A program made the position numbers and the translations under genes. A stretch of 64,000 bases of DNA from Mytilus californianus. Lineage: Eukaryota. Below, one piece after another: positions 39,544 through 64,000 of the stretch (its first letter is position 1; every line of letters begins with the position of its first letter). The stretch lies in contig NW_026262648.1 in NCBI RefSeq assembly GCF_021869535.1, positions 1,364,001-1,428,000 on the forward strand, read 5' to 3'. The notes below the pieces were generated by a model. The model was not told where the DNA came from. It saw only the letters and a list, made by a program, of their open reading frames with translations, and did no database searches.

Positions 39544-42500
39544 ATGGTCAAGCGCAAACGAGAAGACAGAGACACGGATTTGAAAGATGCAAGCCAATGT
39601 CACCCCAAAATGGCATCACTTATTGGTGAGTTCACATATAATTTCTTTGATTATGTAAAACTGTCAAATTTGTGCATTCTTGCAGAAGATCGCCAATCGG
39701 TGGTTTTCTCCGATTAAATTGACCGCCATGGTATAGTTGAGGATTCTGAAAGTGGCGTTAAACACCAACAACCAATCAATCAAATATGTAGATACGTTAG
39801 TACATACTCATGTGACGGAATTTTCTTGCATACTTAATATTGATTTTTAACGTCTCGAAGACAATTTCTTCACTTTCCAATTTGTATAAAATACTTTGAA
39901 TAATAAAACAATTATCATGAACATTCAGATAAGTTTTTTGAGAATTTCCGAATAAAGATCACCATTTAGGATTCCTAGATTTTACATGGTGATTCAAAAT
40001 GAATTCGACGAAGAAAAAGTTCATAGAGATAAGTAAATTAATTGTTTCAAAGGCTCCAATTTTAATTGTATAGATAATCGACACCCTTTATTATGATAAC
40101 CGAATGAATCAGTCATATTAAAAAAAAATCGCCTTTTCAGAAAATGTTTTTAAAACATCAGTATTTAGTAGTATACCAAAATAATCTTTAAATTTCTACA
40201 ATTAATAAAGATGATTCTATAAGTAAATTAATTCACAAATAAATAGTTTCTGGTTAAACCAATTTACGTATATATTTTCATTTGCTGTTCAGACCGATTT
40301 TCGACAAAAAAAGTCAAATCCTCTTTTTTATTCTTGTACAGCAAAGACATTTTTTAAACCATGACGGGAATTTTCTTGAGCTTATATAATGATGGTTTTT
40401 CTTTTCTATAAAAGCAATGTTTTACATTTTTATGAATAACGTTTTAAAGACTGTTTAATTGTTTTTAAGTATGTATACCTTAGATATACTTAAACTGAGA
40501 TAGTCTTTCACGTAGGCTTTCGACGATTTTGACTGTCCTTCGATTTTGTGATTTTCTTATATATATCTTTGGACAGAGCTCATCTATTTGAACCCCGGGC
40601 ATATGTAATATCATTTTTTGCTCCCGGAAATGTAAAAAATAACTCACCATGTTTCAGGGATTATATACTAGTATATTTGTAAATCACATGAATGTGAGTA
40701 ATGTCTTTTTAAATGAATTGACTATGTGAAAGGTTATTATCAAACATGGTTATAAGATATTTAAAACTCTGCCAGATTGATAATGTATAATTTTTTAAAA
40801 GCGATTATTTGGTTCGGAAAGTTTTAAAGTGAATGTTCAAAAGCAACAAAGAATTCAAATTTGCAAATTTAGGTAATCGGATATTAAAATACTGGTTGAT
40901 GGATAAAAGAACCACAAGAACACCACTATTGGGCATAGAAAATTGCAGGTTACGCATTTCACTATCTGTTTAATGTGCAATACTCCAGAAAATAAAATAA
41001 TTCGTAAAAAATTATACTAAAACATCATTTTACAAATTCGAAATGAAAGCTGGTGGTAGTGATTATTGTTATTTTGTAATATACTTAAATCAGTTGTCAA
41101 TCAAGGGATGAATCCAGTTAAGTTGACCCGAAGTCACGCCCCCTCTTTAGCCGACATTTTGTCTCGCTTGCAACTACAGTAGGAAAAGTGAGACAAAACG
41201 ATTCTAGTTTCAGCTATCGGCGTCGTTTTGTCATCGGCGTCTCAACATTAAGGTTTATTTTTTGGACTTGTTCACACATCAATAACTTTGTCTTTATTGA
41301 AATTTTCGATACTTGGACAGAAAATTATAGTCGGATGTTAGAGCTTTCTTAAGTCATGTTTATTGTTGATTTTACATATTGTGGACTCTAAGTATAATTT
41401 ACTTCTTACTAACTATATATATACAACTTCATCATGATCAGTAGACAGCCTCTCAAGAACGAATATTAAACATACATTGTATCTTCATTTTCCTTACTTT
41501 ACTGACAAATGTAATCAACCCTTTTCAAGCCCTTTTTAAAAACTTCTCAAAAACTTTTTACTTATCAATAGACTCTGATCTTAATTGACTAATATTGCCA
41601 TTTTTCTGTCGATAGACGGCGAATCTCTCCGGGCATTCCGACCTCTTCTATCAATCTAAACTCTCTGCCACGATATAGCCAAAAGTACTAAAAGTTGCGT
41701 TGAAAACCAACAACCAATCAATCAATTTATAACATCCACATACAGTTGATGTTATTGCAAAAGATTTGTATTTTACAATTGCTGTCAGACATTTATACTT
41801 CATTCTTACCGGAAGTCATATAACTGTCAAAATTAAATTAAAAGTAAATATTTATGTGTGGCTATGTTTTTTTTTAAAGGTATGACATCAAGACTAACAA
41901 CGCCCTCTGTTTTATCAGCAGCGGAAACGGAACTACGAACAGTTATGGACGATTTTGTAACGGTATATGAAAGATTGGACCAAGAAGACAAAGCGGATAA
42001 GAAACCAAATTACTCTTATACTGAAATGATATACCTTTCGATTCTTCGATCACCAAACTTTTGTTTACCGATAACAGAAATATATAAATATATAAAAAAT
42101 AGATTTTCGTACTTCCGGAGTTCTGCTCGGAAACATTGGTGTAATGCTGTCCGCCATAGTCTTTCAAAAACAAAATGTTTCACAAAGATTGCCATTGGTA
42201 GGGGATCAAGTGGCAACCATAATCTCAACCGATCAACTTATTTATGGTGCATAGTTCCAGGAAGCATAGTTAATTTTGCAAGAGGAGACTATCGTCCAAA
42301 CGTAGATACAGAAAGTGGGACAAACACCCTTCGATGGGGATATTTCCGTGTAAATGCGGGACAATTTTGGGATCAGGTAGCTGTGTATTTAGAGAAGAAA
42401 ATGGAAATTTTTCAGCAAATGATACTTGCAACTCAGTCACCTGGAAAAGTGTTGGAGGCACAAGCTTGTTTTATCCCAGGTTTAGCATCGACTGTTCACA

Positions 42501-43441
42501 TTATGAATTCATCACAGACCAACACACCAACAATTGTTACTAACCAAGAATCAGCGGATAATCCCTTTGTTACAAAACAAGATATACCAACACGTACTGT
42601 TCATTATGGACCGAATTTATCTGATAGTGGAATTTTAGACCAAAGCCTACCAAAAGTGCCGAGACGGATAGGTAATAACAGTAGAGACAGTGGAAATGAA
42701 AGCTTTTCTGACTCAAGCCCAGAGGAAAAACGACAGAAACAAAATAGTTTGCCAAACAAAGGATGTGGATTGAATGCTTCGTATTTAACAGTCAATTCAT
42801 CGATACTCGACGATACACGGAAAACTCCAGAGCTTCCCGATTTGGGACATGTCAGTCCTTTATCGATTTCACCGTCATTATCGCCGATAACAGGAAATGT
42901 AACTTATAACAATGAGACATTTGCAGGATCTTCATTTTCATCCACATTTCCATCGATTCCAGCATCGTTTGCGTCGACACCAGTTGTCACTTCGTTTTCA
43001 CAGCAGCGTTTTTCTCAAGCTCAATCTGTGTACACACACTCATTTTCACCACCACTGTTTCCTTCATTATCGCCGCCAACATTTCAAGTTTCAATGGAGA
43101 GTCCTACTTGCTATCCACAGTTTGCCCAAACAAATTCTAAACCACTGACATTGCCCTATTTACAATCATCAATGAATAGCCCAATGAACACTCAACATAA
43201 TATGTTTTTACCACGTGCTTATTCGCAACCGCCATTGTATATTCCACATCAAGTACCAGCCGGAAGCTACGATTTTGGACAATTTCCGGTACCTCCTATA
43301 TCTCATACACCATATCAGTATGATTCGTACGGATGTCAATCATCTGAAAATCAGATAAACTATTTGCAGTTGTCCTCACAGAATAAGTTCGAGCAGTGTT
43401 CTGGGCAAACATTAGCTTCAGTTAATTGGAATGCAACTTGA
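39544..43441 (+). CDS. Divergent forkhead-box (Fox) transcription factor, 2 coding exons, 547 aa
   Basis: join(39544-39625,41880-43441). The ATG is in a GCCATGG context, the phase-1 junction is GTGAGT..TTTAAAG, and the total is 1644 nt. Forkhead domain: KPNYSYTEMIYLSILRS..IYKYIKNRFSYF..WCNAVRHSLSKTKCFTK..YLW. N-terminal KRKR and an S/P/Q-rich C-terminus. Subfamily not assignable by eye. Confidence 0.88.
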
Positions 43442-45622: not shown

Positions 45623-46432
45623 CTCAAGTTTTGTTTAACTATGATAAGTTGTTAACTGTGATAACTGCTGTCCCCTAACATGATACCTACACTCAATCGA
45701 TTAGATTTTAGACAGATTTACAAGCTAAGAATCCTTCATGAAAATAAAATATCGAACGCAAATTTCTTCCAAACAGTCATTGCAAGTGTAGTTGCAATGT
45801 CAGATTATCCTCCTACCCATCCCCACTCAAAATATCAAATGATTGTCCCCAAACGATCAGGTTTTTTTCATAAAGGAATGTGACTTTCTGTCAGACATCG
45901 TTCAGATTTTTCCACATCAAGGATTTATGTAGTATATAAACAGAGGCGGATTTATGGGGACAAGCGCCGCTCTCCTTATGGAGTTTCATACATGTATATG
46001 ATAAATGCATAGACTTTTTCAAAGTATCACTCCAAAAGTTGCCTTGTCCCCCCTTCTTCCTTTTTTTCAAAATCCTGGAACCGAACCTGATAAATCCTTG
46101 ATCACGTCAGTTTTTTTTAGTAACTACTCGATTCTATTATGTAATGTGTCTACCAAGAAGTCATTGATACCTGTTACCCCGTTTGCAGAAAGGTTTTATT
46201 CGTTTGCTCTTAATTTTTTGATTTATTAGGAAATTTGCGTTTGATATTTATGTCAGGGGGCAGCACTCGTCAGTCTATGAGGAATTATCGTTGAATAAAT
46301 GCACCAACCCGAATGACAGAGTTATCTCCCATTTCGTCTATGTTATTTTAGACAGATTTACAAGTTAAGAATCCTTCATGAAAATAAAATATCAAACGCA
46401 AATTTCTTCCAAACAGTCATTTCAATTTTTAA

Positions 46433-47587
46433 CCTATTTTGAATGATAGTTTCATTGACAGTGATATTTTAAGGAAATGTTGATCAAAGTATTTAAAATT
46501 CCCACAATATATGCATGACGTTTGCCAGTCACGTTGCTTTCGCCGGAAAATTTGAATATTTTGACCTGAATGAAACGATAGCCGAGTAAGGGTGTCGTTG
46601 ATCGGAAAATCAATGCATGCTTCTGATAGAAGAATCATTTAGGAAGGAAATGAGTGTCTTTGTAAGGTATAAAGTGACATAGAAACATTTTTAATTATTT
46701 TTTATGTGAGGAGGTATAAGCTATTCAAAATGGCGACTTAGATCCCTTTAGGATTTTTCAGTATACGGATGTGGATAGTAAACTGCACATTGCTAGAAAA
46801 CAAAGAAATATTTATGCCAACGTTAAAAACGTTAATAATGTAATACAAATAGACAGGAAATACGAAAAAAGATTTGAAAAACATTGATGAACAAAGTTTT
46901 TAAATGCTAACCGAGTCCGTGTAAAAAAGGGATATCTTTATTCTTAATCCCATATAAGATGATGGAAAATGCAACACTAAGACTAAATATCATGATAAAA
47001 AATAATCCGAAATATAAAACATACACGAACTGAGAAAAAAGAATTAATTTTTACAAAAAAATGTGATAATAAAAATTTGTACGAAGGACTTTTTTTGTCG
47101 TCGTGCTTTTCCTTTTCACTACATGTATATATAAAGACAGTATAGGTATTTTCACTTCTATAACAGAAGGATCTATATACTAAGTAAACATTTCAATGAA
47201 ACAAGCACAACATTTATTCCGATAGGGGAAACAAGAATTAAAAGGTTCATTTCCTATGCATTTCCAAAATTATCCTCACAAACTAAGCTAAAAGAAAAAT
47301 ACATTTGATATAATAAAATAAAAAGAGTGAATGTCGAGTTGGCGAAGTGGTATCCCTGCTGCCGAGCCGAGACTCAACAGACAAGGATAGAACTAGCTGC
47401 TTTTGGCTCAGTAGTAAGTAGTCATTTATCCACTACGCTACGGCTCACCCGATATCTAATAGGATATTAGGTACATACGCATGTGTAATTATCGTCATGC
47501 ATATATTGTGGGAATTTTAAATACTTAGTACTGTGATCAACATTTCCTTAAAATATCACTGTTAACGAAACTATCATTCAAAATTGG
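46433..47587. mobile_element. piggyBac-like non-autonomous element, 1155 bp, ~88-bp TIRs, TTAA both sides
   Basis: TTAA|CCTATTTTGAATGATAG..GCATGACG at 46429-46520 is the inverted counterpart of CGTCATGC..CATTCAAAATTGG|TTAA ending at 47591. The CC..GG termini with TTAA are piggyBac-like, but the superfamily call is inferred. Confidence 0.5.
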
Positions 47588-48075
47588 TTAAAAATTCTTG
47601 ATAAAAATCTAACTAAGGGAGTATAAGATTCGATCCCATATCCTCTATATTGTAGGGCCAACGTGTTAACCGCTCGACTATTAAAGAATGTAAACTTATT
47701 ATTTAGAAATTGAGGCTATTTATACATCATGATCAATGATTTTGTTTAACACATGAGTACACGTACGCTGAAGAGTATATGAGAAATGACTTATTATTTA
47801 TTTTTTCTCTGCAGAGCAGAGAAAGGTATTTGTTAACAACAACAACAATATTGATACACGACAAGACTAAAAAGAATTATTAAATGCCGTGTCGTCGAGT
47901 TTTTCGTATGCTTTTGCACGCCTTGTATCAGCTCGCGATCCATCCTGTGAAAAATGGGTATCTTTATTCTTTATCCCATATATGATGATGTATAATGCAA
48001 CACTAAGACTAAAGATCATGATAAAAATTAATCCGAAATATAAAACATACACGAACTGAGAAAAAAGAATTAATT
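47588..48075 (-). repeat. Inverted partial copy of the 1.05-kb array unit
   Basis: Reverse complement of the second half of the units at 52617-55766. Confidence 0.85.
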
Positions 48076-48329
48076 TCTGCTACGAAAAACTCGTATCCTA
48101 GTAGAAGGCGAGCACTTTTATTTTATTTCTTCTAGAATATAGTTAAAGCAAATACTTAAAGCAAGTAAAGTTTCGGTCTTGAAATTCATACAAATACTAG
48201 TAACTTTTTATTTTATTTTTTATTCTAATTTCTTTTTCTATCTGTTCTGCAATTCACCAACCCCTGTGCAATTTTAGATGTTAATTCAAAATTTAGATTT
48301 TAATCATGTGTATTAAAGTATCAAAGCAA

Positions 48330-51300
48330 TTATCTATCAGCTCCTGGAATGTTAATGGAATGTTTAAAAGAATATGTGGTAACAGAGTTTGTTAACTAGA
48401 TGATAATATTATTTGTCAAATTATGACTGCAGATATTGTTTGTTTTTCAGAAACACATATCCCCTCCAAAGAGATTTTAAACTATGATGGTTATAAATGA
48501 TTTGTAAACTGTAGGTCGTCTGATTCAAATAAGGTTAGAGGTGGTTTAGCTACTTTTTTTAAGAAGGAAATATTATCAGGTGTAAAGTTGATGGATAAAT
48601 CCATAGATAATATAATGTGGTTCAAACTAGACAAGAATTTTTTCAGTTTTGATAGAAATGTATATTTATGTTTCCTATATATTCCCCCTTCCAACTCATC
48701 TTACACGTTAAGAACAAATTTTGACAAACAAATTTTTGACAAACTTGAAACTGATATCGCTAAATATAGTATATCAGGGGACGTTATCCTCATGGGAGAT
48801 CTAAATGCACATATTAACTGTAAAGAGTTAGATTTCATAACAAATGAAGTAGATGACAGTTTAGACAACTTTCTTCCCACTAATTATGTCGCAGATAGTG
48901 TATGCAAATTTAGAAATACTCAAGTACACCAAAAAACTAATAACTATGGAAAACTTATACTTGACTTATGCACAGAATCTCAATTAAGAATCCTTAACGA
49001 AAGAACACTTGGTGATTCGAAAGGTAAAATCACTTTCTATAATCATAATGGTGTGTCTATTGATGACTATTGCTTATGCTCATCTGAATTTTTACCAAAT
49101 ATTGTCAATTTTAGTGTAGGTCAATATGAACCAACAATCTCTGATCACTGTCCAATTTCAATAACAATACTATCTCAAATAGTAAAGGAGCCATTGAATA
49201 ATCATGTAAAGCCTACTCTTAGAAGAGTTAAATGGACTATTAAACGAGAAGAAATTTTTAAGTCTAATTAAACTTTAAAACTATTAACTCTGAATTAGAT
49301 AATTTAACCCAAAAAAATGGATGCAAATAATGCACTTGATTCCACTTTAGCTCAAAGTGTAAATGACACAGTCTCAAAATAAAGTCATAAGGAAAAAATA
49401 TAGACAATTTAGACATAAAATGATAACACAGATTATAGATTCAAATAATAGCTGTTCAGATGATTTTTGGAAAACTATTACAAAACTAAAAAAAGGAGAA
49501 CTTCAAGGATCCTAGCTCTAACATACAACCTAAAGAATGGTTTGAATATTTTAATAAATTAATGAATATTGATTATGATAAAAATGCACTTAACGATCAG
49601 AAAATTTATACTGATTTTAATGATTGTAATACTGAGATTTTAAACAGTTATATTACAACTGAGGAGGTGGTTGTTGCAGCTAAATCTTTAAAGAATAATA
49701 AAGCAAGTGGTTCTGATTGTATTACAAATGAAATGTTGCAAATATCTCGTAATATGAATATTGATGTTTATGTAAAATTGTTTAATCTTATTCTTAAGTC
49801 TGGTATTTACCCAACTTTTATTAAGCCCATTTTTAAGGGTTGGTGTTTTAATGATCCATCTAATTATCGAAGTATAGCCCTTTCAAGTTGATTAGGAAAA
49901 TTCTTTCTTAAAGTTTTATATAATAGATTAGAAAAATATCTTGAAGGAAATACAATTATTTGTCGTGAGCAAATTGGATTTAGAAAGGGAAGTCGAACAA
50001 GTGATCATGTTTTGACTCTTAAAAGTATTATTGATAAGGCATTTAAATCATCAAAAAAGATATATGCTTGTTTTATAGATTTCAGGAAGGCATTTGATAC
50101 TATTAACAGGGAGGCTCTCTTTTAAAAATTGTCTTGTTACAACACAGATGGCCTCTTCTTCTGTATATTAATGAGAGATATGTATAAAGAGGTTTTGTAC
50201 TCCGTGAAGATCTCTGAAGGTGTCACTGATTTTTTTAATTCCACAGTTGGGGTAAAACAAGGGTGTATTTTAAGTCCCACATTATTTTCTTTATATATTA
50301 ATGATTTACCCCCTATTTTTGACTCCACATGTGATCCGCCCAAGTTAGATGATAATGATATTTTATGTTTGTTATATGCTGATGATTTAGTTCTTATTTC
50401 TGAATTTGCTAATGGCCTACAAAAATGCCTTGATAAGCTAAGTTTATATTGCACTAGTTGGGATTTAACAGTAAATCTTGACAAAACCTAAATTATGATT
50501 TTTAACAAATAAACTTCTTTGTAAAAAAGCCTCAAAAGCTATATTTTGTATCAGAAAACTGTTATTTTCTGAAGATATTAATGTTTTATCTCACCTCAAG
50601 CTTTTTGATGCTTGTGTTAAACCTATACTTCTGTATTGTAGTGAAGTTTGGTCTCTTTATATGATTAAAGATATTACAAATCTAGATTCAAAATATAAGT
50701 CATTGGCTACCAATAAAATTCAGATTAAATTTGCAAAAACTTTAATTGGAGTAAATAAAACAGCTGTTAATTTAGCAGTACTAGCTGAACTTGGTATGTA
50801 TCCAGTTTTTATATAAGCATTAAAACTGTCAATTGGCTTCTGGTTGCATGTGATACAATCTGGTGATAATTGCTTACTTAAAGATGTATATAGTTCAAAC
50901 CTGCAATTAACCAATGGATTTGCGAAAAAGATTGAACAGCTACTTGCTACATTAAATTTTTCAAATGTTTGGAAAAATCATGATACTATTTCAAAAAGGC
51001 GTTTATTATATGCACTTCATACCAAATTTAATGATAGATACCTGAATTATTGGAAAGAAAATATTTTTTGTGATGATAAAAATCATTGCACGGTAATAAG
51101 CTCAGAACATATAGTCAGCTTAAAGAAAATTACAAATTGGAAACCTATTTATTGTTAAATATTGACAGAAAAGTAATAGAACATTTTGGCAAAATTCGCA
51201 TAAGTAATAGTGTTCTTAAAATTGAACAAGGACGACACACTAAAACACCTGTAGAAGAAAGAATTTGTCCCTTGTGTCTTTTAGAAGTAGAAGATGAATT

Positions 51301-52593
51301 TCATTTCACTATAATATGTAAACTAGAGGCTCTCACGAGCCTGTGTCGCTCACCTGTATTTACTGATGCTTTTGAAATCATGTAAAATAAGGTTAAAATC
51401 ATAATTAACAGTATTGGATATTAGATATTATAATGATATCTAAGATAATAACAAAAAACTGCAAAATTTTTGTAAAATTACTAACTCAGGGGCAGCAACC
51501 CAACAACGGGTTGTCGGATTCGTCTGAAAATTTCAGGGCAGATACATCTAAATCTGATGAACATTTTTGCTACCTGTCAGATTTGCTCTAAATGCTTTAG
51601 TTTCAGGGATATAAACCAAAAACTGCATTTTACCCCTATGTTCTATTTTTAACCAAGTCAGCCATGATGGTTGGAATGCGGGGTCATCGGACAAATTTTT
51701 TAAACTAGATACCCTAATAATGATTATAGCCAAGTATGGTTAAATTTGTCTCAGTAGTTTCAGAGAAGAAGATTTTTGTAAAAGATTACAAAAATTTACC
51801 AAAAATTGTTAAAAATTGACTATTAAGGGCAATAACTCCTAAAGGGGTCGACTGACAATTTTGGTCATGACAACTTATTTGTAGATCTTACTTTGCTGAA
51901 CATTATTGCTGTTTACAGTTTATCTCTATCTATAATAATATTCAAGATAATAACCAAAAACGGCAAAATTTCCTTAAAATTACCAACTCAGGGGCAGCAA
52001 CCCAACAACGGATTGTCAGATTTGTCTGAATATTTCAGGGCAGATAGATCTTGACCTGATAATCAGTTTTACCCTATGTCAGATTTACTCTAAATGCTTT
52101 GGTTTCAGAGATATAAGCCAAAATCTACATTTTACCCCTATGTTCTATTTTTAGCCACGGCGGCCATCTTGGTTGGTTGGCTGGGTCATCGGACACATTT
52201 TTTAAACTAGATACTTGAATGATGATTGTGTTTAAGTTTGGGTGCATTTGGCCCAGTAGTTTCAGAGGAGAAGATTTTTGTAAAAGTTTACGGACGACGG
52301 ACGACGGACGACGGACGCAGGACGACGGACGACGGACGCAGGACGACGGACGACGGACGCAAAGTGATGAGAAAAGCTCACTTGACCTTTCAGGTCAGGT
52401 GAGCTAAAAACTAAATACAATTAGAGAACAATTATTTTCCAAAATTAGTGAAATAGTTCCCTCTTTTTTAAATATGACTAATGAAGCAAGATTTAAATTT
52501 TTGTATACCTGTGGTGAGACTGATATAATTAAAACTATTGTAAAATTAATAAGCACCATGTATAATTCTAGAAATGCTTTATTGAGTACTTAA
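48330..52593 (+). mobile_element. Decayed non-LTR retrotransposon (APE + RT ORF2; RTE-X/CR1-like)
   Basis: APE: ISSWNVNG (48336), ETH, MGDLNA, IDDYCL, SDHCP. RT: GVKQGCILSPTLFSLYINDL, LLYADDLVL. C-terminal KIEQGRH..ERICPLC..EDEFHF..C. The reading frame resumes after the 51321-52410 insertion and ends at TAA 52591-52593. Multiple stops and frameshifts. Confidence 0.88.
51321..52410 (+). mobile_element. HINE/Helentron-like element inserted in the LINE
   Basis: Sub-TIR GCTCACCTG (51348) / CAGGTGAGC (52396), 3' hairpin at 52376-52404, a (GACG)n microsatellite at ~52284-52340, and a ~500-bp internal duplication. Inserted in an A-run with no clear TSD. Confidence 0.78.
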
Positions 52594-55500
52594 TAAATTT
52601 GTGTAAGATTTTTTAACCTATTTTGAAGGATAGTTTCATTAACAGTGATATTTTAAGGAAATGTTGATCAAAGTATTTAAAATTCCCACAATATATGCAT
52701 GACGATAATTACACATGCGTATGTACATACAGGATATTGCACAACAAAGCCAGTACAGTTTAAATAGTTAAATTTTCCTATTAGATATCGGGTGAGCCGT
52801 AGCGTAGTGGATAAATGACTTCTTACTTCTGAGCCAAAAGCAGCTAGTTCTATCCTTGTCTGTTGAGTCTCGGCTCGGCAGCAGGGATACCACTTCGCCA
52901 ACTCGACACTCACTCTTTTTATTTTATTGTATCAAATGTATTTTTCTTTTAGCTTAGTTTGTGTGGATAATTTTGGAAATGCATAGGAAATGAACATTTT
53001 AATTCTTGTTTCTCCTATCGGAATAAAGGTTGTGCGTGTTTCATTGAAATGTTTACTTAGTATATGGATCCTTCTGTTATAGAAGTGAAAATACCTATAG
53101 ATACTATCTTTCTATATAGTGAAAAGAAAGAGCACGACGACAAAAAATAAAGTGTCCTCCGTACAAATTTTGTTTTTTATCACATTTTTTGCAGAAATTA
53201 ATTCTTTTTTCTCAGTTCGTGTATGTTTTATATTTCGGATTATTTTTTATCATGATCTTCGGTCTTAGTGTTGCATTATACATCATCATAAATGGAATAA
53301 AGAATAAAGATACCCCTTTTTCACAGGATGGAGCTGATACAAGGCGTGCAAAAGCATACGAAAAACTCGGCGACTCGGCATTAATTCTTTTTAGTCTTGT
53401 CGTGTATCAATATTGTTGTTGTTGTTAACAAATGCCTTTCCCTGCTCTGCAGAGAAAAATATAAATAATACGTCATTTCTCATATACTCTTCATCGTACG
53501 TGTACTCATGTGTTAAACAAAATCATTGATCATGATGTATAAATAGCCTCAATTTATAATCCTTATGTTTACATTCTTTAATAGACGAACGGTTGACACG
53601 TTGGACTTGCAATAGAGGGGATATGGGATCGAATCTTATACCCCTCAGTTAGATTTTTATCAAGAATTTTTAACCTATTTTGAATGATAGTTTCATTAAC
53701 AGTGATATTAAAATTCCCACAATATATGCATGACGATATTTACACATGCGTATGTACATACAGGATATTGTACAAAAAAGCCAGTACAGTTTAAACAGTT
53801 AAATTTTCCAATTAGATATCGGGTGAGCCGTAGCGTAGTGGATAAATGACTACTTACTACTGAGCCAAAAGCAGCTAGTTCTATCCTTGTCTGTTGAGTC
53901 TCGGCTCGGCAGCAGGGATACCACTTCGCCAACTCGACACTCACTCTTTTTATTTTATTATATCAAATGTATTTTTCTTTTAGCTTAGTTTGTGAGGATA
54001 ATTTTGGAAATGCATAGGAAATGAACCTTTTAATTCTTGTTTCCCCTATCGGAATAAAGGTTGTGCGTGTTTCATTGAAATGTTTACTTAGTATATGGAT
54101 CCTTCTGTTATAGAAGTGAAAATACCTATAGATACTATGTTTCTATATAGTGAAAAGGAAGAGCACGACGACAAAAAATAAAGTGTCCTCCGTACAAATT
54201 TTTTTTTATCACATTTTTTGGCAGAAAATAATGCTTTTTTCTCAGATCGTGTATATGTTTTATATTTCGGATTATTTTTTATCATGATCTTTAGTCTAAG
54301 TGTTGCATTATACCTCATCATATATTGGATAAAGAACAAAGATACCCCTTTTTCACAGGATGGAGCTGATACAAGACGTGCAAAAGCATACGAAAAACTC
54401 GACGACTCGGCATTAATTCTTTTTAGTCTTGTCGTGTATCAATATTGCTGTTGTTGTTAACAAATACCTTTCCCTGCTCTGCAGAGAAAAATATAAATAA
54501 TACGTCATTTCTCATATACTCTTCATCGTACGTGTACTCATGTGTTAAACAAAATCATTGATCATGATGTATAAATAGCCTCAATTTATAATCTTTATCT
54601 TAACATTCTTTAATAGACGAGCGGTTAACACGTTGGACTTGCAATAGAGGGTATGTGGGATCGAATTTTATACTCCCTCAGACTGAGTTAGATTTTTATC
54701 AAGAATTTTTAACCTATTTTGAATGATAGTTTCATTAATAGTGATATTTTAAGGAAATGTTGATCAAAGTATTTAAAATTCCCACAATATATGCATGACG
54801 ATAATTACACATGCGTATGTACATACAGGATATTGCACAACAAAGCCAGTACAGTTTAAATAGTTAAATTTTCCTATTAGATATCGGGTGAGCCGTAGCG
54901 TAGTGGATAAATGACTTCTTACTACTGAGCCAAAAGCAGCTAGTTCTATCCTTGTCTGTTGAGTCTCGGCTCGGCAGCAGGGAAACCACTTCGCCAACTC
55001 GACACTCACTATTTTTATTTTACTGTATCAAATGTATTTTTCTTTAAGCTTAGTTTGTGTGGATAACTTTGGAAATGCATAGGAAATGAACCTTTTAATT
55101 CTTGTTTCCTCTATCGGAATAAAGGTTGTGCGTGTTTCATTGAAATGTTTACTTAGTATATGGATCCTTCTGTTATAGAAGTGAAAATACCTATAGATAC
55201 TATCTTTCTATATAGTGAAAAGGAAGAGCACGACGACAAAAAATAAAGTGTCCTCCGTACAAATTTTTTTATCACATTTTTTGGCAGAAATTAATGCTTT
55301 TTTCTCAGTTCGTGTATGTTTTAAATTTCGGATTATTTTTTATCATGATCTTTAGTCTTAGTGTTGCATTATACATCATCATATATGGGATAAAGAATAA
55401 ATATACCCCTTTTTCACAGGATGGAGCTGATACAAGACGTGCAAAAGCATACGAAAAACTCGGCGACTCGGCATTAATTCTTTTTAGTCTTGTCGTGTAT

Positions 55501-55938
55501 CAATATTGCTGTTGTTGTTAACAAATATCTTTCCCTGCTCTGCAGAGAAAAATATAAATAATACGTCATTTCTCATATACTCTTCATCGTACGTGTACTC
55601 ATGTGTTAAACAAAATCATTGATTATGATGTATAAATAGCCTCAATTTAAAATCTTTATGTTTACATTCTTTAATAGACGAGCGGTTAACACGTTAGACT
55701 TGCAATAGAAGGGCCGTGGGATCGAATCTTATACTCCTCAGATAGATTTTTATCAAGAATTTTTAACCTTTTTTGAATGAAAGTTTCATTAACAGTGATA
55801 TTTTAAGGAAATGTTGATCAAAGTATTTAAAATTCCCACAATATATGCATGACGATAATTACACATGCGTATGTACATACAGGATATTGCAAAACGAAGT
55901 CAGTACAGTTTAAATAGTTAAATTTTCCTATTAGATAT

Positions 55939-56403
55939 GGTTACAAGAGCGCAATTATTTGTTTACATTCAACCGGCAAAATTTTTACCCCAAGATGGTA
56001 CTCAGAATAAAAAATTTTGAGGCTCCTGATTGGATGATGCAGGTTGGAATTATTTTTTATTTGAAAGCTTATTAATTTAGGTTTGAAAATAGGTGGAAAT
56101 TAAATTCATAATTCACAATGTGTAGAAGATATAATTTTTGTTATTAACTGAGGAGCCATTCAAAATTAACCTTAAGTTTCCAATTTAGTGCGGAATTTGG
56201 AAGCTTCCATAACAACTGCATTTTAGGGCACTTTTTGCCGCATGACGATATACTTATTTTTGGCTGTAATAAAAGGCTGACATCTATAGTCACAGGAGCT
56301 GCTACCCATTTTTATCTAGTTTGTTTATTCTTCAAAAAAAGATTTTTGAATACCACTGGGGTCCTATGGAAAATGCATTACAAATAATTGCGCTCTTGTA
56401 ACC
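55939..56403 (+). repeat. Left LTDR (465 bp)
   Basis: Self-inverted 24-bp ends, followed by TATA. Highly similar to 61087-61536 apart from a ~10-bp and a ~5-bp indel and scattered substitutions. Confidence 0.92.
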
Positions 56404-56413
56404 TATACTGAAA

Positions 56414-56880
56414 ATGGACTTTTACTTTCACTTTCAAAAAACTAAGTATTTTTGGAACTTTTTAAAACACACGAGTGATTTGGATCAATACTCTGTCACA
56501 ATGGATGCCTTTTGGGACAATATTGGACTCAAATTTTTTAAGAAAACTGAAGTTATGGGGAATGGGAAGGGATGTGTTGAATGGGTCGGAGCAAAAAAGG
56601 GAAAATCTTGTTATGGCATACAGGTTGGGAAATGGCCAGGGGGTGAGGAAAAAGGGAGGCTGCACATAGACTGGCATACATGATTAAGCATAGATTGACA
56701 AGATATGATATGCCACAAATAGATGAGAACAACAATAAAGTAGAATGTAGCCATATTTGTGACCAAACTCTCTGTGTCAATCCTGAACACATAACTATTG
56801 AACCTCATGCTATAAATCAAGACTGTAAAAATAAGGGACATTGCTCTAAAAGTCACAAGCCATATTGTTTAATATGTAAT
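56414..56880 (+). pseudogene. His-Cys box (His-Me finger, I-PpoI-like) homing endonuclease, frameshifted
   Basis: Frame 1 reads ..GCVEWVGAKKGKSCYG..KWPGGEEK. After a 1-nt shift near 56655 it reads AAHRLAYMIKH..VECSHICDQTLCVNPEHITIEPHAINQDCKNKGHCSKSHKPYC, matching the SHLCH..C.NP.HL..E....N motif and the second Cys/His zinc cluster. Confidence 0.85.
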
Positions 56881-56895
56881 TTAATAAATAAATAT

Positions 56896-59800
56896 TTATT
56901 TTTTAACAGATCTTTTTCTCTTTCGGTCATTTCTGCTGTATGAATGGTCACTTTGTTTCTGCGGAGTAGATTTCAGTCCTTGATCACATTTTAGCAACAT
57001 ATTTTTTTCATATTCTATTATTTCACTTAGTTTTTCATACAGTTTGTACAGTTAAGCCCTTTTATCACTTCTAAATTGCTTGTATTGCATAGTCTTTTTG
57101 TGCTGTTTTTGCAAAATGTCAACTTTTTGTATTTCTTTTAGAGCCTTGTATGCAGAGCCTCCCACTGGGACTTCACAATGAAGAGCAGTACAAAGTTCTA
57201 GAACTGATTCTCCTGGACCAAAATTAACACTGTGAGCAGCTGAATGAGCACGAACGGTAACATTTCTTTTAAAAGTAACATTTGACGGTAAAGAACGCCT
57301 CAGGCTACGGTTAAATCCCTCAACACAATTAGTGTTCATATTAAGTCTGGTCTTGTCAAGTGTATTTGGGCCAAGACGCAGGTTGACTGTCTTTCTTATG
57401 AAGTCTATATTTTGCTGTGAGTGTGCAATTTTGAATGTTTTTGGTAGTAGTGACCTTCCTGTAAGCCATACTTTCTGTAATCCATTACATAAAAATGAAT
57501 GTTTTTTACACGACGAATGATTTCCAGTGTAACAGTTGACAATTGCATCAACGACATGCGATATTTTACATTTGATTTTTTTAAAGTTTCCACTGTACAT
57601 TTTCCTTGTCTGAGCCAGCTCGGCATTACACCTTTCTGTCAAATCCACTGAAAAATAATTCAGTAGTTTTTGTCTCTTCACTTGTGTTCTTGCTGGCATA
57701 ATCTGTAACAGGTTCTTATCATTCTTCGTACGCTTACGGATATTCTCAGACACATGCCGTGTATCAAGGAAATGTTCAGGCTGAGTACTTATTGTGCCTT
57801 CTTCATACAAATCTTGTGCAGCCCTGTATGCAGAGCAGTCGGTCGGGATCAGTAACCAGGTGCTCAACCTCAATGTTGTCTGCCTTAAGATCAAGGATAC
57901 ACTCTTTGGCCCATGTATATTCATCCCCTATACTTTTGACCATTGGAATGTTGGCACTACATTCATCTGTACACTGTGCATGTAAACGGCCTGTGTCAGG
58001 ATCCACCTCAAGGCTTGAATGTTTTAAACAATGCTTATTTTTGTCGAGCCTTCGACTTTTATCGAAAAAGCGAGACATAGCGATCCTACATTCCGTCGGC
58101 GTCGGCGTCGTCGTCGGCGGCGTCCACAAATATTCACTCTGTGGTTAAAGTTTTTGAAATTGCAATAACTTTCTTAAACTATCCTGGATTTCTACCAAAC
58201 TTGGACAGAAGCTTGTTTATGATCATAAGATAGTATCCAGAAGTAAATTTTGTAAAAAAAAAATCATTTTTTCCGTATTTTACTTATAAATGGACTTAGT
58301 TTTTCTGCCAGTTAACATTACATTCACTCTGTGGTTAAAGTGTTTAAAATTTTAACAACTTTCTTAAACTATCCTGGATTTGTACCAAACTTGGACAGAA
58401 GCTTGTTTATGATCATAAGATAGTATCTAGAAGGAAAATTTGTTAAAATTTTGTTCCATTTTTTCCGTTTTTTACTTATAAATGGACTTTGTTTTTCTTC
58501 CAGTTAACATTACATTCACTCTGTGGTTAAAGTTTGTAAAATTTTAACAACTTTCTTAAACTATCCTGGATTTGTACCAAACTTGGACAGAAGCTTGTTT
58601 ATGATCATAAGATAGTATCCAGAAGTAAAATTTGTAAAAAAAATCCAGTTTATCCGTATTTTACTTATAAATGGACTTAGTTTTTCTGCCAGTTTACATT
58701 ACATTCACTCTGTGGTTAAAGTTTTTTTTAAATTTTAACAACTTTCTTAAACTATCCTGGATTTGTACCAAACTTGGACAGAAGCTTGTTTATGATTAAA
58801 AGCTAGTATCTAGAAGGAAAATTTGTTAAAATTTTGTTCCATTTTATCGTTTTTTACTTATAAGCGGACTTTGTTTTTCTTCCAGTTTACATTACATACA
58901 GTCTGCAGTTTAAGTTTTTAAAACATGTATTAGATTAAATAAACTATCCTGGATTTTTACCAAACTTGGACAGAAGCTACTTACAATCAAAAGATAGTAT
59001 AGAGAGGAATATTTTTATTAATTGTTTTCCTATTTTTGTTGAGCCTGCGATTAACAGCAAAAGTAGGCGAGACACTGGGTTCCGCGGAACCCTTACGATT
59101 TTTTTATATTTACGTTAGTATATTATGGTCTGTTGTTATATTTTCAGCTGTGGTATAGACAGTTTGTGTTACAGGCTGAAATGGAGTGCGTCCAACACCG
59201 GAATACAGCGGATTGTTATACATTCCGTCCATCTGCAAACTGATTGTGTTTGGATCTTCCTTCCCTCTGAGGCTATTGATTTCAATAATTTCATTTTTTC
59301 TTTTTCTCAGGTCCATTTTATTCACATCTACGATGTTTTTAAGGACTTTATTTGCTCTTCTTTGTAGACTGGATGCTGCTGGTGCCTGCATATTACCACT
59401 TAGAATGATTTTGCGCATACTGGAGGAAGCTATTGGTGTCTGACTCAGGCCAACATGTACAGCTGTATCTAGTTTTGATGGTTTTCTGCCTGGCTTTCCT
59501 GTTTCTAATTCTTCGTTTAAGCTTTACATATCCGATATATAACTGCAACTTGTACAAATCGAAATCTGGCGAGAAGAGAATCCTCTTTTCTCCTCTTTCT
59601 CTAGATCGCATGATAGTTTACCCTCACAGGCTGGACGTTTTTGCTGGTGCTCCCTAAAGGCCTTGTTCCACATTTCTTCCATCTTGTAAACACACACCGT
59701 ACTATAAGAATTGAAGTCAGGCCTGGAAAAACACAAAAAAATTGCACATTTACACCTGTAATCAAGAATATTTTCAACAAATAATTTTTCTGAATTAGAG

Positions 59801-60381
59801 TTACCTGCCCTTTGCTTGGGTATGAATTTTTTTAAACTGACTGTTGGACATTTTGACATAGTTTTATAGGGCTAATTATCTCTATTTCATTTAAACAAAA
59901 CATAAAATTACTTAATTTTAGAAGGAAAAGACAGAGTAAATTCCAGTTTAATATATTTTTAGTGTAAGAAATGTGAAATTTTATGAATTTTCAGTATATT
60001 TTAGCAGTTTTAGACCTACTTTGTACTGTGATATTACTTAATTGTTCATCTGTAACTGTTTTCTCTATTTAAAAATTAGATTATATATTTTTTCCTTACC
60101 TTTTGTCATTTACAGCAGGATTCCTGTTGGTTTTTTTTTGGAACAGAGACCTCATCAGACTTTGGTCGCAGTAGTTTGGCCGCACGAGCAGACCGCCTGC
60201 CTTTTTCCTCTGGATCAGTGTATGGATCATTTACTACTAAATTGTACTTTTTCATGGTAAGTCTTGTATATTTAGGTGTGTCATAGTCACTTTTCACTGG
60301 CAATAGTTTAGTCCTATTTTTGGTATGAGGTATACTTCCAGCCTTAAATTTAAAGATATTTCTTTTTTTGAACCCAGACAT
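56896..60381 (-). pseudogene. Kolobok-type DDE transposase, disrupted
   Basis: Pieces 60381-60106, 59722-59110 and 58037-56896 join into one protein: C..C.Y.S..GRKP..GLSQT, MDGMYNN (D1), VTDPD (D2), NTNCVEGFNRSLRRSLP (E), ending DHSYSR..KRKRSVKK*. Lesions: stops at 59524 and 57052, frameshifts near 59110 and 57840, and a 1-kb HINE insertion. Probable introns near 60099-59870 and 59804-59723. Confidence 0.85.
58040..59100 (+). mobile_element. Helitron/Helentron-like non-autonomous element with ~4.5 tandem 190-bp units, nested in the transposase
   Basis: Inserted in a T-run. It has a (CGT/CGG)n microsatellite near the left end, units CATTCACTCTGTGGTTAAAG at ~58131, 58321, 58513 and 58702, and a perfect 16-bp terminal palindrome GGGTTCCGCGGAACCC at 59077-59092. 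Confidence 0.82.
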
Positions 60382-61086: not shown

Positions 61087-61536
61087 GGTTACAACAGCGC
61101 AATTATTTGTTTACATTCAACCGGCAAAATTTTTACCCCAAGATGGTACTCAGAATAAAAAACTTTGAGGCTCCTGATTGGATGATGCAGGTTTTTGTTT
61201 GAAAGCTTATCCATTTAGGTTTGAAAATAGGTGGAAATTAAATTCATAATTCACAATGTGTAGAAGATATAATTTTTTTATTAACTGAGGAGCCATTCAA
61301 AATTAACCTTTCCAATTTAGTGCGGAATTTGGAAGCTTCCATAACAACAGCATTTTAGGGCACTTTTTGCCGCATGACCATCTACTTTTTTTTTGCTGTA
61401 ATAAAAGGCTGACATCTATAGTCACAGGAACTGCTACCCATTTTTATCTAGTTTGTTTATTCTTCAAAAAAAAAATTTTTGAATACCACTGGGGTCCTAT
61501 GGAAAATGCATTACAAATAATTGCGCTCTTGTAACC
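61087..61536 (+). repeat. Right LTDR (450 bp)
   Basis: Preceded by TATA (61083-61086) and followed by the ATAT TSD. Confidence 0.92.
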
Positions 61537-62316
61537 ATATCGGGTGAGCCGTAGCGTAGTGGATAAATGACTACTTACTACTGAGCCAAAAGCAGCTAGT
61601 TCTATCCTTGTCTGTTGAGTATCGGCTCGGAAGTAGAGATACCACTTCGCCAACTCGACATTCACTCTTTTCATTTTATTGTATCAAATGTATTTTTCTT
61701 TTAGCTTAGTTTGTGTGGATAATTTTGGAAATGCATAGGAAATGAACCTTTTAATTATTGTTTCCCCTTTCGGAATAAAGGTTGTGCGTGTTTCATTAAA
61801 ATGTTTACTTAGTATATGGATCCTTCTGTTATAGAAGTGAAAATACCTATAGATACTATCTTTCTATATAGTGAAAAGGAAGAGCACGACGAAAAAAAAA
61901 TAAAGTGTCCTCTGTACAAATTTTTGTTTTATCACATTTTTTTGCAGAAATTAATTCTTTTTTCTCAGTTCGTGTATGTTTTATATTTCGGATTATTTTT
62001 TTATCATGACCTTAAGTCTTAATGTTGCATTATACATCATCATAAATGGGATAAAGAATAAAGATACCCCTTTTTCACAGGATGGAGCTGATACAAGACG
62101 TGCAAAAGCATACGAAAAACTCGACGACTCGGCATTACTTCTTTTTAGTCTTGTCGTGGTGTATCAATATTGCTGTTGTTGTTAACAAATACCTTTCCCT
62201 GCTCTGCAGAGAAAAATATAAATAATACGTCATTTTTCATATACTCTTCATCGTACGTGTACTCATGTGTTTAACAAAATCATTGATCATGATGTATAAA
62301 TAGCCTCAATTTATAA

Positions 62317-62436
62317 ACACAAACTAAGCTAAAAAAAACAACATTTGATATAATAAAATAAAAAGAGTGAGTGTCGAGTTGGCGAAGTGGTATCCCTGTT
62401 GCCGAGCCGAGACTCAACAGACAAGGATAGAACTAG
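62317..62436 (-). repeat. 120-bp inverted fragment of the array unit
   Basis: Reverse complement of CTAGTTCTATCC..CTTAGTTTGTGT, joined directly to the truncated unit 4 and to the satellite. Confidence 0.85.
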
Positions 62437-63639
62437 GGGTAAGCATTCTTAAAGGCCGAAAATTTCGCTCGAAACATAAAAATAAAGCCAAATTCGATAA
62501 AATACGCGTTGGGGACACCCTTTTTCCGACCCATTGTCTCGGTTGTTCTTTATGGCTAGGGATTATAGACGCTGCCCTAATGAATAGCTATTGGATAGTA
62601 CTACAACGTGAGGACAAAGAATTTCTTGGGTAAGCATTCTGAAAGGCCGAAAATTTCGTCCGTAACACGGAAAAAAGTAAAATTTGATAAAATACGCATT
62701 GGGCACTTTCCAACCTATTGCCTTGGCAGTTCTGTATGGCTAGGGATTATAGACTCTGCTCTAATAAATAGCTATTGGATAGTACTACAGCGGGAGGGTA
62801 AAGAATTTCTGGGGTAAGCATTCTTAAAGGCCGAAAATTTCGCTCGAAACATAGAAATAAAGCCAAATTCGATAAAATACGCGTTGGGGACACCCTTTTT
62901 CCGACTCATTGTCTCGGTTGTTCTTTATGGCTAGGGATTATAGACGCTGCCCTAATGAATAGCTATTGGATAGTACTATAACGTGAGGATAAAGAATTTC
63001 TGGGGTAAGCATTCTGAAAGGCTCAAAACTTCGTCTGTAAGACGGAAAAAAGTCAAATTTGATAAAATACGCATTAGGCACTTTCCAACCTATTGCCTCG
63101 GCAGTTCTGTATGGCTAGGGATTATAGACTCTGCTCTAATAAATAGCTATTGGATAGTACTAGAGCGGGAGGGTAAAGAATTTCTGGGGTAAGCATTCTT
63201 AAAGGCCGAAAATTTCGCTCGAAACATAGAAATAAAGCCAAATTCGATAAAATACGCGTTGGGGACACCTTTTTTCCGACCCATTGTCTCGGTTGTTCTT
63301 TATGGCTAGGGATTATAGACACTGCCCTAATGAATAGCTATTGGATAGTACTACAACGTGAGGATAAAGAATGTCTGGGGTAAGCATTCTGAAAGGCCGA
63401 AAATTTCGTCCGTAACACGGAAAAAAGTCAAATTTGATAAAATACGCATTGGGCACTTTCCAACCTATTGCCTCGGCAGTTCTGTATGGCTAGGGATTAT
63501 AGACTCTGATCTAATAAATAGCTATTGGATAGTACTACAGCGGGAGGGTAAAGAATTTCTGGGGTAAGCATTCTTAAAGGCCAAAAATTTCGCTCGAAAC
63601 ATAGAAATAAAGCCAAATTCGATAAAATACGCGTTGGGG
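62436..63639 (+). repeat. Higher-order satellite: alternating 191-bp (A) and 184-bp (B) monomers, 375-bp dimer x3.2
   Basis: Monomer starts (G/T)GGGTAAGCATTC at 62436, 62627, 62811, 63002, 63186, 63377 and 63561. A-A and B-B copies are much more alike than A-B. Confidence 0.92.
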
Positions 63640-64000
63640 TCAACTGCAACGGAAGTAAAATTAATTTATGATTTTTTTGTTTGCCATACATTGATTACAA
63701 AAAATAAACCTACCATCTTATTTATATCAAGCGCAAGCCACTTACACAAAACATGCGTAATACACTCTTTCAGTTTTGTTTTAGGAGATATTTGCTATAA
63801 TACAGATAATATCAGTTGCTCATTTAATTTATACATATTGCTATTTTTTAGGAACTATTTTACAGGATGCCGAGAGTATGGAAGGCCATTTCACAGTATG
63901 ACTGCCAAAACATTGATCATTAAAAAGTTATTAGATAATACTACATTCAGATATTATAGATTGTTTGGCGTAAACATTCCTAAGATGCGAACATTCGAAT

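What the first reader, a model, noticed from the sequence alone, without database searches (positions are those of the whole stretch)
56414..56880. Cargo His-Me finger nuclease of group I intron type, with recognisable active site but inactivating lesions
Seen: SHIC..TLCVNPEH..EPHAIN plus a C..C..H..C tail. Knowledge: in I-PpoI the SHLC His is the general base, the downstream Asn binds Mg, and two Cys/His clusters bind Zn. Such enzymes normally come from nuclear rDNA group I introns of protists and fungi, not animals. Lesions: a 1-nt frameshift near 56655, CDQ where CHN is usual, and an Asn-to-Cys spacing of 3 rather than ~6 residues (suggests a 9-nt loss including a conserved Arg). The first ATG lies only 10 bp inside the left LTDR boundary.
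Basis: partly seen in the sequence, partly recalled or inferred. Interest (0 to 1): 0.7.

Follow-up and report, generated by a model that had tools for sequence, protein, structure and literature searches.

The report
Dead KolobokP transposon nuclease in mussel
This is a real but broken copy of the DNA-cutting gene carried by an already described kind of shellfish jumping gene (KolobokP); intact sister copies sit elsewhere in the genome, often in long head-to-tail rows that the enzyme is proposed, but not shown, to help build.

Summary
Observation confirmed; the system is published. [quoted passage not shown] An intact sister copy hits PF05551 (3e-14) and its model matches I-PpoI (Z 10.1). The frameshift, His-to-Asp change and 9-nt deletion are real; 17 of 29 sister copies keep an open frame. 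The ATG at 56414 is in frame only through a private insertion; the real start is 56501. The transposase is also broken, so this copy is dead. It is a new family (not found among the published LTDR sequences; nearest is KolobokP-1_PeVi), not a new system. Additions: the nuclease was under purifying selection (dN/dS 0.24); 98 of 150 scored nuclease hits lie in tandem loci of up to 24 units, one a nuclease-only hexamer. The published self-cutting model remains untested. The scan had noted a KolobokD cousin in this genome, nothing like this protein.

The parts
55935..55938 (.). Left copy of the 4-bp target-site duplication (ATAT)
   Evidence: Same 4 bases at 61537-61540; empty sites of the host 1.05-kb repeat at 52777 and 54873 carry one copy
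55939..56403 (.). Left LTDR (465 bp here, 460 in intact copies) with perfect 24-bp TIRs, ends GG..CC
   Evidence: 437 of 466 columns identical to the right LTDR; TIR 55939-55962 / 56380-56403
56501..56943 (+). His-Me finger (His-Cys box) nuclease pseudogene; 150 aa in intact copies, conserved core to 56877
   Evidence: PF05551, PDB I-PpoI hits, fold match of intact sister copy L032
56649..56653 (+). Frameshift: A-run one base short, upstream of the whole catalytic motif
   Evidence: 2 of 30 copies
56761..56763 (+). Asp codon where sister copies have His (SHICD versus SHICH)
   Evidence: 1 of 30 copies
56823..56824 (+). 9-nt deletion (Arg-Leu-His) between the metal-binding Asn and the first Cys of the second zinc site
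   Evidence: 1 of 30 copies; the Arg is >=90% conserved in 129 homologues
56896..59722 (-). Transposase main exon (DDD/E, PF20700), broken by a 4-bp insertion, a 1.06-kb insertion, a 1-bp deletion and 2 stops; its 3' end overlaps the nuclease 3' end by 48 bp
   Evidence: 595-aa open frame in intact copies; lesions
60100..60381 (-). Predicted first exon of the transposase (92 codons; a 375-bp GT-AG intron would give 679 aa in L032); carries a 4-bp insertion here
   Evidence: In-frame join computed on L032 and similarity in the diverged copy L052; no read shows this splice
58038..59099 (.). Later insertion into the transposase: HINE-like non-autonomous Helentron with ~190-bp repeats
   Evidence: Absent from 10 of 10 fetched sister loci; repeated 13-mer at both ends, microsatellite, terminal palindrome; anatomy as in PMC7492417
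61087..61536 (.). Right LTDR (450 bp; 10-bp deletion)
61537..61540 (.). Right copy of the target-site duplication (ATAT)

Best explanation
This is the broken nuclease gene of one dead copy of a KolobokP DNA transposon; in intact sister copies the gene encodes a predicted I-PpoI-like, zinc-stabilised DNA endonuclease that likely cuts the element's own repeated ends and so would help it grow into head-to-tail arrays. Shown: element anatomy, family identity, the lesions, conserved catalytic and zinc residues in sisters, purifying selection, variable insertion sites, abundant arrays. Inferred from I-PpoI: His85 general base, Asn106 metal ligand, two zinc sites, dimeric recognition of a near-palindromic site. 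Inferred from the published model and untested: the target is the LTDR or the abutted-TIR junction of an excised circle, and repair of the cut gives multimers. The transposase, not the nuclease, makes new insertions. My confidence is about 0.97 for identity and death of this copy and about 0.45 for the self-cutting role.
For: Anatomy matches every structural feature in PMC9587614. Intact copy: PF05551 3e-14; all 5 PDB hits of the 129-sequence profile are I-PpoI, best 8.6e-10; model pLDDT 93.7; top four Foldseek hits I-PpoI; Z 10.1, rmsd 3.4 over 115 residues, next I-HmuI Z 6.1. C25, S84, H85, C87, C92, H97, E101, N106, R109, C112, C118, H122, C126 are >=90% conserved. dN/dS of the nuclease against the diverged copy L052 is 0.24 (120 codons, p 5e-8) and against L053 0.32. 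TSDs differ from site to site (ATAT, TTAA, AGTA, ATAA, TATA, TTCT, GTAG, TTTA, AAAT), so there is no fixed homing site for insertion. 98 of 150 scored PF05551 hits fall in 16 multi-copy loci, up to 24, 20, 11 and 8 units; 8 units of the 11-mer differ by 0-7 positions in 4081 bp with transposase frames open; a hexamer with 100% identical units, 461-bp terminal repeats and TSD keeps an open nuclease frame and has no transposase hit.
Against: No cleavage or target is shown. The 5-unit array on C2 carries a nuclease whose tail frameshift (seen in 4 of 5 units and in a monomer on C13) predates the array, so an intact nuclease in cis is not required. Solo LTDRs and plain host repeats are also amplified in tandem in this genome, so arrays may need no special cutter. 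LTDRs inside arrays are intact and near-identical, which argues against frequent cutting with error-prone repair. The one RNA run with raw reads (about 6% read) gave no read on the nuclease frame. Within the young family dN/dS tests are mostly non-significant (1 of 8 significant).
Confidence: 0.8

Rival explanations
1. The nuclease acts during transposition itself (processing excised circles or flanks, or nicking target DNA), and arrays arise by ordinary unequal crossover between LTDRs without its help.
For: Purifying selection shows a benefit to the element but not which one; arrays exist with a broken nuclease; abutted TIRs of a circle would form a 48-bp palindrome; the paper itself lists this route.
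Against: A nuclease-only element forms a perfect hexamer; the paper notes some families lack the nuclease.
Confidence: 0.3
2. The protein is a sequence-specific DNA-binding factor (regulating or holding the element's ends) with little cutting activity, as in the NFI/Smad MH1 proteins that share this fold.
For: NFI and Smad MH1 domains are the next fold matches (Z 4.8, 4.6); LTDRs in arrays look uncut.
Against: Catalytic His and Asn are >=90% conserved across 129 homologues; I-PpoI scores far higher (Z 10.1).
Confidence: 0.12
3. A true homing endonuclease of a group I intron, or contaminating protist/fungal rDNA, or a domesticated host gene.
For: Closest solved relative is the intron enzyme I-PpoI.
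Against: No Rfam match (no group I intron, no rRNA) in the 64-kb window; the gene lies inside a TSD-bounded transposon with 41 genomic matches; close homologues are annotated in Mytilus.
Confidence: 0.01

Closest known systems
KolobokP lineage of Kolobok DNA transposons (Kojima & Bao 2022, PMC9587614); nearest listed family KolobokP-1_PeVi of Perna viridis
   Same: LTDR-INT-LTDR; LTDR 460 bp (PeVi 461), TIR 24 bp (24), TSD 4 bp (4), length 4541 bp (4530); LTDR start differs from PeVi's at one base in the first 24; INT begins and ends TATA; DDD/E transposase and convergent His-Me nuclease; solo LTDRs, multimers and an INT-INT junction with a single TATA. Published KolobokP transposase rows share long stretches with P0002.
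   Different: This family's LTDR ends and nuclease motifs were not found in the paper's sequence supplement, so it appears to be an unlisted family; arrays here reach 11 units (24 in another family of this genome); the window copy is dead.
I-PpoI and His-Cys box homing endonucleases of nuclear group I introns (Pfam PF05551; PDB 1a73)
   Same: Fold (Z 10.1), SH.C..C..H..E..N motif, eight zinc-type Cys/His.
   Different: About 20% identity; encoded by a DNA transposon, not an intron; no rRNA or intron nearby; target unknown.
KolobokD / KolobokE / Kol0 lineages
   Same: Kolobok DDD/E transposase with an accessory gene.
   Different: Accessory protein is an exonuclease or KolX, and there are no LTDRs.

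Membership tests
KolobokP | Two long terminal direct repeats of ~450 or ~660 bp around an internal region | tested here: met
   55939-56403 and 61087-61536; 460 bp in intact copies
KolobokP | Each LTDR has its own short TIRs and RR..YY ends | tested here: met
   24-bp TIR, GG..CC; Table S1 lists TIRs up to 25 bp
KolobokP | 3-5 bp TSD without strong target preference | tested here: met
   ATAT here with empty sites; other 4-mers elsewhere; three loci (L031, L034, C154 array) had no clean TSD
KolobokP | DDD/E transposase with C/DxxH signature and two zinc fingers | tested here: met
   PF20700 4.8e-45; motifs QMDG, VTDPD, LDTRH, VEGFN and Cys/His clusters located and shared with published rows; no tree was built
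KolobokP | His-Me finger nuclease downstream on the opposite strand | tested here: met
KolobokP | Solo LTDRs and multimers in the genome | tested here: met
   Solo LTDR with TSD (L047), dimers, 5- and 11-unit arrays, LTDR-INT-INT-LTDR
His-Cys box (I-PpoI-type) endonuclease | S97/H98/H110/E114/N119 equivalents and eight zinc Cys/His | tested here: met
   S84, H85, H97, E101, N106; C25, C87, C92, H97, C112, C118, H122, C126 in intact copies; residue roles and recalled I-PpoI knowledge
His-Cys box (I-PpoI-type) endonuclease | I-PpoI fold | tested here: met
   (model of intact copy L032, not of the broken copy)
His-Cys box (I-PpoI-type) endonuclease | Sequence-specific double-strand cleavage as a homodimer | not testable with these tools
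   needs biochemistry
Group I intron homing endonuclease gene | Encoded within a group I intron in rDNA | tested here: not met
   0 Rfam matches in the window; transposon context

The most novel reading that the evidence does not exclude
The KolobokP nuclease is a stand-alone amplifier: it cuts LTDRs wherever they lie and drives tandem expansion independently of the transposase, building arrays of up to 24 elements, perfect arrays of nuclease-only elements, and even expanding a host repeat that caught a solo LTDR; it would be the first protein-guided homing-type nuclease shown to build satellite-like arrays in an animal genome, with an antisense circular RNA from the element as a possible brake.
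Probability: 0.25. Interest if true: 0.6.

Novelty: new member of a known kind. Interest (0 to 1): 0.22.

Why it matters
The broken gene itself is ordinary. The value lies in the neighbourhood: the role of the KolobokP nuclease still awaited experimental confirmation in a 2026 review (PMC13565253, passage read), and this genome offers young intact copies, near-identical arrays and a nuclease-only array with which to test it. A new His-Cys box specificity would also add to a very small set of characterised enzymes of this class.

Tried and rejected
First structure model from a 17-sequence alignment was poor (pLDDT 51.7) and was not used. Homodimer prediction gave no answer (score 0.02, alignment not used): no evidence either way. 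A 12-bp palindrome inside the LTDR as candidate target: 164 of 1000 shuffles do as well and by eye it is not kept in the PeVi LTDR, so rejected. Transposase against PDB sequences: 2 hits at E 0.4-0.8, nothing useful. Rfam on the window and on two stretches of the C1 host array: 0 matches. Expression of the nuclease: no raw read on the frame in X21; contigs of X1, X2, X3, X9 cover it but cannot show transcription. Searches for this exact family in supplement file 3 (LTDR ends, nuclease motifs): 0 hits; line breaks, gaps and ambiguity codes could hide a match, and Repbase, supplement files 2 and 4 and part 2 of Table S1 were not seen. Literature: 'KolobokP' is in 2 papers of the library; a search joining Kolobok, circular RNA, antisense and bivalve listed 10 papers, none about this by title or abstract start. 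Earlier scan notes by sequence: none. No tree was built; the I-PpoI target sequence was not searched for.

Full report
1. Observation. The plus strand at 56656-56892 reads EAAHRLAY...VECSHICDQTLCVNPEHITIEPHAINQDCKNKGHCSKSHKPYCLIC, and the N-terminal half lies in another frame. This fragment alone hits PF05551 at 2.6e-9. A DNA search of the own genome (1.65 Gb, 175 contigs) scored 40 of 49 candidates and gave 41 matches; the best 30, including the window's own, were fetched. Aligned to them, the window copy has a 5-A run for a 6-A run at 56649-56653 (shared with 1 other copy), Asp for His at 56761 and a 9-nt deletion after 56823 (both private), and a private +1 A near 56436. 17 of the 29 other copies keep an open frame from MDAFW to PYCLIC. 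The ATG at 56414 is in frame only because of the private +1; the conserved start is 56501, as in homologues from other assemblies.

2. The element. 55939-56403 and 61087-61536 are direct repeats (437 of 466 columns identical), each with a 24-bp TIR and GG..CC ends. They are flanked by ATAT on both sides, and two units of the host 1.05-kb repeat at 52777 and 54873 show the empty site. The intact monomer L032 is 4541 bp, with a 150-aa nuclease frame and, convergent on the other strand, a 595-aa frame that hits PF20700 at 4.8e-45; a predicted upstream exon would make it 679 aa (inference). The window copy differs from L032 by 117 substitutions in 4519 aligned bases (2.6%) and 13 indels, among them a 1062-bp HINE-like insertion in the transposase; the transposase also has 2 stops. 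Both genes of this copy are dead. Named close homologues are from Mytilus, so the host is a mussel by inference.

3. What the protein is. For intact copy L032, phmmer finds I-PpoI at E 0.002; a 129-sequence profile finds only I-PpoI chains, best 8.6e-10; all 129 members hit PF05551. The AlphaFold model (pLDDT 93.7) has I-PpoI as the top four Foldseek hits and Z 10.1, rmsd 3.4 A over 115 residues, in the wide search, followed by I-HmuI (6.1) and NFI/Smad MH1 (4.8, 4.6). The catalytic and zinc positions and R109 are at least 90% conserved, the His after SH.C is not. So the frameshift and the Arg-Leu-His deletion are likely inactivating, the His-to-Asp change less clearly. The family is large: 1573 cluster representatives at E<=0.001.

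4. What is known. PMC9587614 (main text parts 1-5 of 6, Table S1 part 1 of 2 and passages of supplement 3 read) describes exactly this architecture as KolobokP, 228 families in 7 animal phyla, with an I-PpoI-like nuclease, solo LTDRs and multimers, and proposes that the nuclease cuts LTDRs or circle junctions to induce unequal crossover. The nearest listed family by dimensions and LTDR start is KolobokP-1_PeVi (4530 bp, 461, TIR 24, TSD 4). This family's own ends were not found in the supplement, with the caveats given under Tried and rejected. A 2026 review (PMC13565253, passages) says the model awaits experimental confirmation.

5. Evidence on function. Selection: against diverged, decayed copies L052 and L053 the nuclease has dN/dS 0.24 (p 5e-8) and 0.32 (p 3e-5); among 8 closer comparisons only L040 is significant. 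The gene was thus kept for its protein. Targeting: TSDs vary, so it does not choose insertion sites. Arrays: a PF05551 search scored 150 of 411 candidates; 98 of the 150 fall in 16 multi-copy loci of 68, with 24, 20, 11, 8, 6 and 5 units; 4 other arrays that were sampled carry transposase plus convergent nuclease. In the 11-unit array of this family the 8 units compared differ by 0-7 positions. On C88 six identical 2227-bp units bounded by a 461-bp repeat and an ATTT duplication keep an open nuclease frame with no transposase hit. Against a simple cis model: the C2 array was built from a unit with a damaged nuclease tail; 23 of 40 scored LTDR hits are one solo LTDR carried in an amplified host unit on C1 (14 examined, all with the same flanks); LTDRs in arrays show no scars. 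The scoring of best candidates also favours near-identical array units, so 98 of 150 overstates the genome-wide share.

6. RNA. Of 24 runs listed, 6 were laid. Raw reads of X21 gave no coverage of the nuclease frame. Two segments antisense to the transposase (window 57141-57256 and 60116-60256) have canonical splice sites on the nuclease strand, are joined in contigs of X1 and X3, stand at about ten times the element's depth in X1 and X9, and X9 has a 59-base contig joining the end of the second back to the start of the first; X15, whose depth is even along the element, and X2 show no such joint. In X21 three reads join foreign sequence to the first acceptor, and one donor is not kept in L052, so host exonisation with back-splicing is the likelier reading. 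These runs may be of other individuals or species.

7. Verdict. Real, correctly seen, but the expected second gene of a published transposon lineage, in a dead copy. New member of a known kind; interest 0.22. What remains open, and is testable with the intact copies found here, is the nuclease's target and whether it drives the arrays.

Noticed in passing
G000:C88:132012790-132026612 (L091, L092): Six 100% identical 2227-bp units bounded by a 461-bp LTDR-like repeat and an ATTT duplication; open His-Me nuclease frame, no transposase hit: a nuclease-only KolobokP-type multimer of another family.
   Followed up: partly
G000:C154:57.87-57.95 Mb; C88:39.61-39.68 Mb; C99:49.33-49.37 Mb; C121:49.04 Mb (L093-L097): Tandem arrays of 24, 20, 8 and 3 scored units of other transposase-plus-nuclease families; the C154 one has a frameshifted transposase in the sampled units.
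   Followed up: partly
G000:C1:119.81-119.97 Mb (L041-L046): One solo LTDR of this family (TSD AAAT) inside a host unit repeated at 2.9-4.0 kb spacing; 23 hits among 40 scored; unit not identified, no Rfam match.
   Followed up: partly
window 57141-57256 and 60116-60256 (+): Two exon-like segments antisense to the transposase, joined at GT-AG sites in RNA-type contigs, with an apparent back-junction (253-nt circle or array read-through) in X9.
   Followed up: partly
L032:1950-4850 in run X15: Contig depth about 3300 along the element against 19-33 for diverged copies; may mean far more near-identical copies in that sample, but the tool warns that this depth is no copy number.
   Followed up: no
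window 58038-59099: HINE-like non-autonomous Helentron with about five ~190-bp repeats inserted in a T-run of the transposase.
   Followed up: partly
window 52593-55938, 61537-62436 and 46424-48080: Host 1.05-kb repeat in about four tandem units (93-96% alike) that received the transposon; inverted fragments at 46.9-48.1 kb; identity not determined.
   Followed up: no
window 41837-43441 (+): 534-aa open frame with a Forkhead domain (PF00250, 2.1e-20), a likely host transcription-factor gene.
   Followed up: no
window 48501-49271 (+): 256-aa frame with an endonuclease domain of LINE type (PF14529, 3e-7).
   Followed up: no
window 62436-63640 and 34342-35468: Tandem arrays: alternating 184/191-bp units (375-bp higher order) and a 28/30-bp minisatellite.
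   Followed up: no
L048/L049 (G000:C99:47.876-47.885 Mb): LTDR-INT-INT-LTDR with a single TATA at the INT-INT junction and TSD GTAG, the LTDR-excision footprint described in the paper.
   Followed up: yes
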